Positions 23,367 through 23,416 of a DNA stretch of 64,000 nt are shown here, one piece after another (positions within the stretch are counted from its first letter, which is position 1; every line of letters starts with the position of its first letter). Position numbers and translations under genes: made by a program. The DNA is from Escherichia coli (GTDB lineage: Bacteria > Pseudomonadota > Gammaproteobacteria > Enterobacterales > Enterobacteriaceae). The stretch lies in NCBI RefSeq assembly GCF_003334305.1, contig NZ_QOWS01000012.1; one strand, given 5' to 3'. The notes beneath the pieces were generated by a model. It made no database searches, was not told where the DNA came from, and saw only the letters and a program-made list of their open reading frames with translations.

Positions 23367-23416
23367 TTATCATTAATCCGTTAATGATGTGGCCGGGCGA
23401 ACCCGGCCTAATGTGA

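What the first reader, a model, noticed from the sequence alone, without database searches (positions are those of the whole stretch)
23371..23408. Two hairpins between the fimbrial major-subunit gene and the usher gene
Between the ygiL stop (23417) and the yqiG start (23366/23357) lie cattaa-tccg-ttaatg (23371-23386) and a perfect GC stem ggccggg-cgaa-cccggcc (23391-23408). Intra-operon stem-loops after the major pilin gene are a known device in pap/fim-type operons for stabilising the subunit transcript and lowering usher/chaperone expression. This fits partial termination or RNA processing setting pilin:usher stoichiometry.
Basis: partly seen in the sequence, partly recalled or inferred. 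Interest (0 to 1): 0.3.

Follow-up and report, generated by a model that had tools for sequence, protein, structure and literature searches.

The report
Hairpin after the fimbrial pilin gene
A strong GC-rich RNA hairpin sits just after the main subunit gene of a cryptic E. coli fimbrial operon; it is an ordinary example of the device these operons use to make far more subunit than assembly machinery.

Summary
On the minus strand, the 59-nt ygiL-yqiG spacer (23416..23358) holds hp1, GGCCGGG-UUCG-CCCGGCC (23408..23391, -14.5 kcal/mol), and hp2, AUCAUUAA-CGGA-UUAAUGAU (23388..23369). hp2 has 8 bp rather than 6 and only -3.8 kcal/mol.

hp1 is far beyond chance and folds in every sequence context tried. 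hp2 is weak, depends on context and is specific to E. coli.

Fifteen orthologous pilin-usher operons from other enterobacterial genera carry a hairpin at the same place. It is 99% paired, and 5 of its 9 pairs show compensatory changes. There it is followed by a U-tract, so it is a standard intrinsic terminator or attenuator.

Ten of 12 E. coli chaperone-usher operons surveyed have a comparable hairpin after the major subunit gene. One of these is the fimA hairpin, which is the sRNA FimR2.

E. coli hp1 has no U-tract, and a covariance model built from the orthologues does not match it.

Published K-12 RNA data show coverage falling from 309 to 3 reads across this junction. The fall is partly relieved by inhibiting Rho, but an IS2 insertion confounds the measurement.

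Most likely hp1 defines and protects the 3' end of a ygiL-only mRNA, while termination downstream, largely Rho-dependent, lowers usher transcription.

This is a new member of a known kind and of low interest. The chaperone gene is frameshifted in this strain.

The parts
23417..23968 (-). ygiL, the fimbrial major-subunit (pilin) gene. It is 183 aa, has a good Shine-Dalgarno sequence (AAGGA) before the ATG at 23968, and stops at TAA 23419-23417.
   Evidence: ORF list. PGAP annotation of the identical O111:H- 11128 record calls it ygiL, fimbrial-like protein. Homologues carry PF00419.
23358..23416 (-). The 59-nt ygiL-yqiG intercistronic spacer that contains both hairpins.
   Evidence: Folding energy -21.6 kcal/mol, z = -4.36.
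23391..23408 (-). hp1: a perfect 7-bp all-G/C stem with a UUCG loop, -14.5 kcal/mol, 8 nt after the stop codon and with no U-tract (the tail is ACAUCAUU). Proposed 3'-end-defining and exonuclease-blocking hairpin of the ygiL mRNA.
   Evidence: Invariant stem in E. coli; the only variation is a loop G/A polymorphism at 23398.
23369..23388 (-). hp2: an 8-bp stem that is A/U apart from one C-G pair, with a CGGA loop, -3.8 kcal/mol. It is weak and context-dependent. The loop GGA and the AUG in its 3' arm resemble the usher ribosome-binding site and start codon of the orthologues.
23350..23373 (-). A 7-codon mini-ORF (AUG 23373-23371, MISGTDV, UAA 23352-23350). It starts inside hp2 and ends 5 nt past the A of the usher AUG. 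It is a mechanical ORF and its translation is untested.
   Evidence: Sequence. Same frame and stop as the 40-aa ORF 23350..23472. Comparison with the orthologues' usher leaders.
23362..23366 (-). GUGGA, a weak Shine-Dalgarno-like element 4 nt upstream of the usher AUG. It is polymorphic: GUGAA in STEC388.
   Evidence: Predicted to be mostly base-paired in all folding contexts.
20853..23357 (-). yqiG, the outer-membrane usher gene, intact here (the ORF is 837 aa counted from the GTG at 23366; PGAP starts it at the ATG at 23357).
   Evidence: In K-12 it is interrupted by IS2 71 nt after the start.
20089..20846 (-). yqiH, the chaperone gene, split into two ORFs by a frameshift.
   Evidence: PGAP marks it 'frameshifted' in the identical record.
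19023..20087 (-). yqiI, the adhesin-like last gene of the operon.
18984..19003 (.). An 8-bp hairpin shared by the convergent yqiI and glgS genes, marking the end of the operon. The U-run lies only on the glgS (+) side.

Best explanation
hp1 is the polarity element that follows the pilin gene in this chaperone-usher operon. Transcription starts upstream of ygiL. The well-translated ygiL message ends in a very stable G/C hairpin 8 nt past its stop codon.

hp1 has no U-tract, so RNA polymerase mostly passes it. The spacer and the poorly initiated, A/U-rich start of yqiG are thinly covered by ribosomes. A large share of transcripts therefore end downstream, by Rho-dependent termination or by endonucleolytic cleavage. 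3'-to-5' exonucleases then trim these transcripts back to hp1, which blocks them.

The outcome is a stable monocistronic ygiL mRNA and a much smaller amount of mRNA that includes the usher, chaperone and adhesin genes. That gives many pilin subunits per usher. The weak usher Shine-Dalgarno (GUGGA), predicted to be base-paired, lowers usher output further at the level of translation.

Shown here: the existence, stability and non-random nature of hp1; its position; conservation with covariation of a hairpin at the same place in orthologues; the generality of the layout; and the absence of a U-tract.

Taken from the literature: the fall in RNA coverage at this junction in K-12, and its partial relief by bicyclomycin.

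Inferred: the exonuclease-barrier role, the site of Rho action, and the effect on protein stoichiometry. hp2 is probably incidental or a minor modulator of translation.
For: 1. hp1 is real, extreme and robust: -14.5 kcal/mol, unique in 64 kb, and pairing probability of 0.93-1.0 in nearly all contexts and haplotypes tested (one exception, see the Against line).

2. Fifteen orthologous pilin-usher operons from other genera (47-60% pilin identity) all carry a hairpin between the pilin and usher genes. It has 9 pairs, 99.3% of cells are paired, and 5 pairs show changes on both sides. None of 500 shuffles reaches this, and slid-register controls give 18-58% pairing. Selection therefore maintains a stem at this position.

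3. In those orthologues the stem is followed by U-runs (T-score 1.8-4.0). The consensus terminator scan calls it in 2 of the 3 loci tested. No promoter-like site lies between the hairpin and the usher gene there or in the window. Usher expression must therefore come from read-through.

4. Ten of 12 E. coli chaperone-usher operons surveyed have a strong G/C hairpin directly after the major subunit gene.

5. Precedents:
- Partial termination between papA and papH reduces downstream transcripts (PMC6524683).
- The papA mRNA carries an RNase-resistant 3' structure, and the malE-malF hairpin protects the upstream cistron (PMC5927463).
- The Term-seq primary fimA 3' end lies at 4543708, exactly at the base of a hairpin that lacks a U-run (PMC7815308 supplementary file 1).
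- fimA mRNA is about 8 times fimI mRNA and about 12 times fimC mRNA (PMC10673952).

6. In K-12, DirectRNA-seq places a Rho termination region at 3185961. That is 4 nt before the end of ygiL and 13 nt before hp1. Reads in the 800 nt upstream versus downstream are 309 versus 3 without bicyclomycin and 358 versus 33 with it. The Rho score is 9.49 and p = 2.65e-6 (PMC7815308 supplementary file 2). The authors note that such positions sit nearer to processed 3' ends than to the true termination sites.

7. Five polymorphic sites occur in the spacer across the E. coli haplotypes, and none lies in a stem. By chance this has probability (29/59)^5 = 0.03.

8. The related ExPEC EA/I cluster has an 8-bp hairpin with a poor U-tract. 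It made fimbriae when cloned from the pilin ATG under a tac promoter (PMC2771359). Read-through past such a hairpin therefore does occur.
Against: - There is no direct 3'-end mapping at hp1. The Term-seq table of PMC7815308 has no ygiL 3' end, probably because expression is low.
- The K-12 coverage drop is confounded. IS2 starts 71 nt into yqiG, so only about 134 of the 800 downstream nucleotides are unique sequence. The insertion itself creates untranslated RNA that invites Rho. The native, intact operon may behave differently.
- hp1 shows no stem variation within E. coli, so covariation cannot be tested for hp1 itself.
- The covariance model built from the orthologues does not recognise hp1, so shared ancestry with the orthologous terminators is unproven.
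- In one folding context of the STEC388 haplotype the hp1 outer pair drops to probability 0.35.
- In this strain yqiH is frameshifted. Any stoichiometric role is therefore moot here.
Confidence: 0.6

Rival explanations
1. hp1 is itself a partial Rho-independent terminator, as in pap and in the orthologues. A fraction of polymerases stop at the hairpin despite the poor U-tract.
For: The position is the same as the canonical terminators of the orthologues. The hairpin is stable. Even with bicyclomycin, K-12 downstream coverage is only about 9% of upstream (33 versus 358), so a Rho-independent component may exist. The papA-papH precedent applies (PMC6524683).
Against: The tail ACAUCAUU has 3 U in 8 nt, none of them next to the stem, and a T-score of 0.32 against 1.8-4.0 in the orthologues. 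The consensus scan does not call it. By established knowledge of E. coli intrinsic terminators, a U-tract next to the stem is needed for efficient release. The residual drop with bicyclomycin can be explained by unmappable IS2 sequence.
Confidence: 0.18
2. The spacer acts mainly on translation. hp2, the base-paired GUGGA element and the 7-codon mini-ORF control ribosome loading on yqiG. This could work by occlusion, by termination-reinitiation coupling, or by CsrA binding to the GGA in the hp2 loop together with the GGA at the Shine-Dalgarno element. hp1 would be secondary.
For: - hp2 presents CGGA in its loop, and a second GGA lies 15 nt downstream at the Shine-Dalgarno-like element.
- The GGA and AUG of the mini-ORF align with the usher ribosome-binding site and start codon of the orthologues (ACGGAUUUUAUG), and its stop overlaps the usher AUG.
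- The Shine-Dalgarno-like bases are predicted to be paired in all contexts.
- CsrA binds the analogous fimA-fimI spacer and FimR2 (PMC9723502).
Against: - hp2 is only -3.8 kcal/mol and is largely lost with +/-100 nt of context.
- It is not conserved as a hairpin in the orthologues.
- The second GGA is lost in the STEC388 haplotype.
- The 4-bp helix that closes the junction vanishes once flanking sequence is added.
- There are no ribosome-profiling or CsrA data for this site.
Confidence: 0.1
3. The hairpins are a functionless relic: decayed remains of an ancestral terminator and ribosome-binding site in a cryptic, silenced and often pseudogenised operon.
For: - The U-tract is absent.
- The orthologue model does not match hp1.
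- The operon is often broken: IS2 in K-12, IS1 right after hp1 in strain 210221272, an internal stop in JS316, and the yqiH frameshift here.
- The locus is missing from about 40% of E. coli genomes.
- There are only 3-4 spacer haplotypes, so the apparent conservation may simply reflect recent ancestry.
Against: A perfect all-G/C 7-bp stem in a region of about 40% GC is very improbable without selection. Decay would be expected to hit the stem first, yet all 5 spacer polymorphisms avoid both stems. A hairpin at this position is under clear selection in relatives.
Confidence: 0.08
4. The ygiL 3' end with hp1 is released as a small regulatory RNA derived from the 3' UTR, analogous to FimR2 from the fimA-fimI spacer.
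For: FimR2 (35 nt, b4838) is cut by RNase E from the equivalent position of the fim operon. It ends at a G/C hairpin that lacks a U-run.
Against: Only 8 nt separate the stop codon from hp1, so any seed region would have to be coding sequence. I saw no resemblance when reading the two sequences side by side; no alignment was run. There are no GGA motifs upstream of or within hp1. Rfam gives no hit, but FimR2 is not in Rfam either, so this says little. No expression data exist.
Confidence: 0.04

Closest known systems
papA-papH intercistronic terminator of the P-pilus (pap) operon (Baga et al. 1985, as summarised in PMC6524683; papA mRNA 3' structure as summarised in PMC5927463)
   Same: It is a stem-loop directly after the major pilin gene. 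The operon likewise places the usher before the chaperone (PMC2771359 notes that yqi and pap share this order). It reduces transcripts of the downstream assembly genes and gives a stable pilin mRNA with an RNase-resistant 3' end.
   Different: The gene following papA is papH, not the usher. The pap element is described as a partial transcription terminator, whereas hp1 has no U-tract. Nothing has been measured for ygiL-yqiG in an intact operon. I did not have the pap sequence to compare directly.
fimA-fimI spacer hairpin / sRNA FimR2 (b4838; PMC9723502; Term-seq 3' end at 4543708 in PMC7815308)
   Same: It is a G/C-rich hairpin shortly after the major subunit gene of an E. coli chaperone-usher operon, followed by UUGUGCG rather than a U-run. 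A dominant RNA 3' end maps at its base. fimA mRNA is 8-12 times more abundant than fimI or fimC mRNA (PMC10673952).
   Different: FimR2 is a defined 35-nt product of RNase E with two GGA motifs. It binds CsrA and acts in trans. The ygiL spacer has only 8 nt before hp1, showed no resemblance to FimR2 when I read the two sequences side by side (no alignment was run), and has no known small RNA.
Orthologous pilin-usher terminators of Yqi/EA-I-type operons in Enterobacter, Klebsiella, Citrobacter, Trabulsiella, Hafnia, Pluralibacter, E. whittamii and ExPEC (defined here, model R1)
   Same: They occupy the same position in the same operon type. Part of the stem core is shared (GGCCGG...CCGGC, as in Trabulsiella). 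Hairpin energy is similar (-10 to -18 kcal/mol).
   Different: The orthologues have 8-11 bp stems, lie 22-35 nt or more after the stop codon, and mostly have U-runs. E. coli hp1 has 7 bp, lies 8 nt after the stop and has no U-run. Model R1 does not detect it, although it does detect the ExPEC EA/I hairpin (E = 0.01).
Intercistronic 3' protective stem-loops in differential operon decay (malE-malF and others; PMC5927463)
   Same: A stable hairpin lies downstream of the more abundant upstream cistron. It is proposed to block 3'-to-5' exonucleases after a downstream cleavage or termination event.
   Different: The malE-malF element is a REP repeat present many times in the genome. hp1 is a single-copy sequence. 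No decay measurements exist for ygiL.

Membership tests
Post-pilin intercistronic attenuator/stabiliser of chaperone-usher operons (pap/fim type) | Lies on the coding strand directly downstream of the major subunit gene and upstream of the assembly genes. | tested here: met
   hp1 starts 8 nt after the ygiL stop codon and ends 33 nt before the yqiG ATG.
Post-pilin intercistronic attenuator/stabiliser of chaperone-usher operons (pap/fim type) | A thermodynamically stable, non-random stem-loop. | tested here: met
   hp1 folds at -14.5 kcal/mol. The spacer has z = -4.36. hp1 is the only all-G/C 7-bp hairpin in 64 kb.
Post-pilin intercistronic attenuator/stabiliser of chaperone-usher operons (pap/fim type) | The stem is maintained by selection (covariation). 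| tested here: inconclusive
   Clear in the orthologues: 5 of 9 pairs are compensatory and 99.3% of cells are paired. E. coli hp1 shows no stem variation at all, and only 3-4 haplotypes exist.
Post-pilin intercistronic attenuator/stabiliser of chaperone-usher operons (pap/fim type) | Transcript abundance drops across the element, or RNA 3' ends map at it. | tested here: inconclusive
   From the literature only. K-12 shows 309 versus 3 reads across 3185961, with Rho score 9.49 (PMC7815308 supplementary file 2). This is confounded by IS2 in yqiG. The Term-seq table lists no 3' end for ygiL.
Canonical intrinsic (Rho-independent) terminator | A G/C-rich stem immediately followed by a U-tract. | tested here: not met
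   The tail is ACAUCAUU, with T-score 0.32 against 1.8-4.0 in the orthologues. The terminator scan does not call it, although it calls the orthologue hairpins in L011 and L020.
Orthologous Yqi/EA-I pilin-usher terminator family (covariance model R1, built here) | Matches the sequence-plus-structure profile of the 15 orthologues. | tested here: not met
   cmsearch finds the ExPEC EA/I hairpin (19.7 bits, E = 0.01). It finds nothing at 23391-23408, even with filters off.
REP/BIME-type repeated protective hairpins | Member of a dispersed repeat family. | tested here: not met
   There is a single occurrence in the window even when 2-3 mismatches are allowed. The locus region occurs once per genome in blastn searches; the second place seen in some records, such as K-12, comes from the IS2 split of yqiG.
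FimR2-like 3'UTR-derived sRNA | A discrete small RNA, processed by RNase E, that ends at the hairpin and carries GGA motifs binding CsrA. | not testable with these tools
   The positional analogy is met. No GGA lies upstream of or within hp1. There are no expression data. Rfam has no FimR2 model to test against.

The most novel reading that the evidence does not exclude
The E. coli lineage has rewired an ancestral intrinsic attenuator into a different device. The U-tract was lost, so polarity now depends on Rho together with an exonuclease-blocking hairpin. The ancestral usher ribosome-binding site and AUG were kept as a 7-codon leader ORF embedded in hp2, whose stop overlaps the new usher start. 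Usher synthesis would then be coupled to translation of this leader, or gated by CsrA binding to the hp2-loop GGA and the Shine-Dalgarno GGA. The ygiL 3' end with hp1 might also be released as a FimR2-like regulatory RNA.
Probability: 0.1. Interest if true: 0.5.

Novelty: new member of a known kind. Interest (0 to 1): 0.2.

Why it matters
Chaperone-usher fimbriae need hundreds to thousands of major subunits per usher, although all the genes share one promoter. Hairpins after the pilin gene are the classical answer, known from pap and fim. This work shows that the cryptic Yqi operon and its relatives across the Enterobacteriaceae use the same answer.

One modest point is new. The orthologues use standard terminators with clear covariation. 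The E. coli K-12-type operon keeps only a U-less G/C hairpin, and in K-12 the polarity at this junction is sensitive to Rho.

This gives a natural pair of attenuators, with and without a U-tract, for comparing the two ways of setting operon stoichiometry. It does not open a new question.

Tried and rejected
1. Rfam scan of 18-26 kb on both strands. Nothing was found at the site; the only real hit is the FMN riboswitch before ribB.

2. Covariation within E. coli. The spacer has only 3-4 haplotypes among 3,277 genomes and no stem variants, so no test is possible.

3. Proteins that looked like intermediate homologues (P0019 at 69%, P0014 at 80%, P0017 at 79% identity). I fetched them hoping for intermediate spacers. 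P0019 and P0014 come from assemblies of bisulfite-converted E. coli reads (C-to-T or G-to-A), and P0017 is a frameshifted copy. None shows real divergence.

4. Homology of hp1 with the orthologous terminators. MAFFT aligns GGCCGG with AGCCGG, but covariance model R1 does not match hp1. Homology is left unresolved.

5. A three-way junction in which UCAC, just after the stop codon, pairs with the usher GUGG. It appears when the 59-nt spacer is folded alone and is compatible with all three haplotypes. It disappears (probability 0.0) once 30 nt or more of flanking sequence are added. Rejected as unsupported.

6. Fur-box or other DNA-site readings of the hp2 palindrome. By eye, the best ungapped match to the 19-bp Fur consensus is 10 of 19. 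Not pursued.

7. An internal promoter for the usher gene. No promoter-like site lies in the spacer.

8. Searching with the 35-nt EA/I primer by megablast gave no match, probably because of the low-complexity filter. I found the EA/I locus through the ubiK neighbourhood instead.

9. Other 3'-end datasets. No supplementary files are held for PMC6061677. The supplements of PMC5927463 do not list ygiL.

Full report
**What is there**

The window is E. coli. The region is 100% identical to strains such as O111:H- 11128. On the minus strand lies a four-gene chaperone-usher operon:
- ygiL, the pilin gene, 23968..23417.
- yqiG, the usher gene, from the ATG at 23357 to 20853.
- yqiH, the chaperone gene, 20846..20089, frameshifted here.
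- yqiI, 20087..19023.

The 59-nt ygiL-yqiG spacer reads, as mRNA: UCACAUUA-GGCCGGG-UUCG-CCCGGCC-AC-AUCAUUAA-CGGA-UUAAUGAU-AAGUGGAACAG-AUG. The second has 8 pairs (23388..23369), not 6.

**Is it more than chance?**

- The 101-nt context folds at -27.6 kcal/mol with z = -4.27. The spacer alone has z = -4.36.
- hp1 alone folds at -14.5 kcal/mol and occupies 96% of its ensemble. hp2 folds at only -3.8 kcal/mol.
- hp1 is the only perfect all-G/C 7-bp hairpin in the 64 kb. A Markov null predicts about 4e-4 such hairpins per 59-nt spacer.
- The operon is only 37-43% GC.
- The spacer ranks in the top 2.7% of all 59-nt windows, and in the top 0.9% of those with matched GC.
- Neither hairpin is a repeat, and Rfam has nothing at this site.
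- With longer flanks, hp1 keeps a pairing probability of 0.93-1.0. hp2 drops to 0.02-0.26.

hp1 is therefore a robust structural element, and hp2 is marginal.

**Terminator features**

Neither stem is followed by a U-run. The consensus scan does not call the site. The T-stretch score of the hp1 tail is 0.32.

**Comparative evidence**

Within E. coli, 3,280 of 5,426 complete genomes carry the locus. The spacer exists in only 3-4 haplotypes, at 100%, 96.1% and 94.7% identity.

Its five variable positions are 23414, 23409, 23398 (in the hp1 loop), 23363 and 23361. All avoid both stems. This is suggestive (p about 0.03) but gives no covariation.

The operon is an insertion-deletion difference between ubiK and glgS. 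It is absent from O157:H7. In an APEC strain a 59%-identical operon, the published ExPEC adhesin I (Yqi) cluster, lies beyond ribB instead (PMC2771359).

A scan of species-representative genomes with a YgiL alignment returned 15 orthologous pilin-usher loci from other genera. Every one has a hairpin between the two genes.

On their alignment, the 9-pair stem is 99.3% paired and 5 pairs show compensatory double changes. No shuffle out of 500 reaches this, and slid registers give 18-58% pairing.

These stems (-10 to -18 kcal/mol) are mostly followed by UUUU, with T-scores of 1.8-4.0. The scan calls them terminator-like in 2 of the 3 loci tested.

In this operon family, then, a terminator or attenuator at this position is under selection.

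A covariance model built from these 15 sequences finds the ExPEC EA/I hairpin (E = 0.01) but not E. coli hp1, even with filters off. hp1 is the positional counterpart, but it cannot be shown to be a member of that sequence family. It is shorter, closer to the stop codon, and has no U-tract.

**Generality**

I read the spacer after the major subunit gene in 11 K-12 chaperone-usher operons and in EA/I. Ten of the 12 have a strong G/C hairpin there: ygiL, ybgD, yfcV, EA/I, fimA, sfmA, elfA, yadN, yraH and ecpA, with gltF similar. yehD has none. The quality of the U-run varies widely.

The fimA-fimI hairpin is annotated as the sRNA FimR2. FimR2 is processed by RNase E and binds CsrA (PMC9723502).

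**Transcript evidence from the literature**

- Partial termination between papA and papH lowers downstream pap transcripts (PMC6524683).
- papA and malE mRNAs are protected by 3' structures (PMC5927463).
- Term-seq places the primary fimA 3' end at 4543708, at the base of its U-less hairpin (PMC7815308 supplementary file 1).
- fimA mRNA is about 8-12 times more abundant than fimI or fimC mRNA (PMC10673952).

For this locus itself, the same study's DirectRNA-seq with and without bicyclomycin lists a Rho termination region at 3185961. That is 4 nt before the end of K-12 ygiL and 13 nt before hp1. Read counts upstream versus downstream are 309 versus 3 untreated and 358 versus 33 treated. The Rho score is 9.49 and p = 2.65e-6.

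The authors note that such positions lie nearer to processed 3' ends than to the termination sites.

There is a caveat. K-12 carries IS2 71 nt into yqiG. Most of the downstream window is therefore repeated sequence, and the insertion itself creates untranslated RNA.

**Mechanism**

The best-supported reading (confidence 0.6) is that hp1 defines and protects the 3' end of a ygiL-only mRNA. Termination or cleavage downstream, largely Rho-dependent in the only available data, depletes the message that contains the usher gene.

The weak usher Shine-Dalgarno element (GUGGA), predicted to be base-paired, adds control at the level of translation.

The rivals are:
- A weak intrinsic terminator (0.18).
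- A mainly translational device involving hp2, a 7-codon mini-ORF or CsrA (0.10).
- A relic without function (0.08).
- A precursor of a FimR2-like sRNA (0.04).

hp2 looks as if it was assembled from a second copy of the usher leader. Its loop GGA and the AUG in its 3' arm align with the ACGGAUUUUAUG ribosome-binding site and start codon of the orthologues. The resulting mini-ORF stops 5 nt past the A of the usher AUG. This is noted but untested.

**Verdict**

This is a new member of a well-known kind of element, in a cryptic operon that is broken in this strain. Interest is low (0.2).

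Noticed in passing
window 20089-20846 (-): The chaperone gene yqiH is split into two overlapping ORFs (20460-20846 and 20089-20463). PGAP marks it 'frameshifted' in the identical O111:H- 11128 record. The fimbrial operon is probably non-functional in this strain.
   Followed up: partly
window 23350-23373 (-): A 7-codon mini-ORF (MISGTDV*) starts at an AUG inside the 3' arm of hp2. A GGA lies 3 nt upstream of that AUG. Its UAA stop overlaps the start of the usher gene. Its GGA and AUG align with the usher ribosome-binding site and start codon of orthologous operons, which suggests a duplicated or relic start site.
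   Followed up: partly
window 18984-19003: An 8-bp hairpin, AACGGGCC-N4-GGCCCGUU, lies between the convergent yqiI (-) and glgS (+) genes. The U-run is on the glgS side only. The fimbrial operon therefore also ends at a hairpin with no U-run in its own direction.
   Followed up: partly
window 24663-24811 (+): An FMN riboswitch (RF00050, 120.9 bits, E = 1.4e-28) lies upstream of ribB (24915-25568).
   Followed up: no
window ~19000-24250; loci L043, L044: The whole ygiL-yqiGHI operon (37-43% GC against 49.7% for the window) is an insertion-deletion difference between ubiK and glgS. It is absent from about 40% of complete E. coli genomes, including an O157:H7 strain. In an APEC strain a 59%-identical EA/I (Yqi) operon lies on the other side of ribB instead.
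   Followed up: yes
loci L038-L041 (Logan assemblies): Some protein-database hits look like YgiL homologues at 69-80% identity. They come from assemblies of bisulfite-converted E. coli reads (systematic C-to-T or G-to-A changes), not from divergent organisms. This is a trap for anyone using these clusters as evolutionary intermediates.
   Followed up: yes
L056 (strain 210221272), L055 (K-12), hit H41 (strain 94EC): Insertion sequences recur at this junction. IS1 sits right after hp1 with loss of the 5' half of the usher gene. IS2 sits 71 nt into yqiG in K-12. IS1 lies within the matched region in strain 94EC.
   Followed up: partly
L046 2675-2709 (K-12 fimA-fimI spacer): The annotated sRNA FimR2 has no match in Rfam 15, even at E <= 1. 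Rfam scans therefore cannot detect FimR2-like elements.
   Followed up: yes
window 56532-56600 (-) and 2502-2575 (-): These are the strongest local hairpins in the window. One is a stem of about 18 bp at roughly 44% GC (about -30 kcal/mol) near 56.5 kb. The other is a 13-14-bp G/C-rich stem near 2.5 kb (-31 to -33 kcal/mol).
   Followed up: no
window 44158-44209 (-): The hairpin GGCCGGUG-N5-UGCCGGCC follows a stop codon and weakly matches the orthologue terminator model R1 (14.7 bits, E = 0.41). It is probably an unrelated gene-end hairpin.
   Followed up: no
L052 5171-5229 (K-12 ybgD-ybgQ): The paralogous Ybg operon has the same gene order and a spacer of exactly 59 nt. It carries a 6-bp all-G/C hairpin (GGCGGC-AUCAUC-GCCGCC) followed by UUUC, and a UGGA Shine-Dalgarno-like element 4 nt upstream of the usher AUG, at the same spacing as in ygiL-yqiG. 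The architecture matches ygiL-yqiG.
   Followed up: partly
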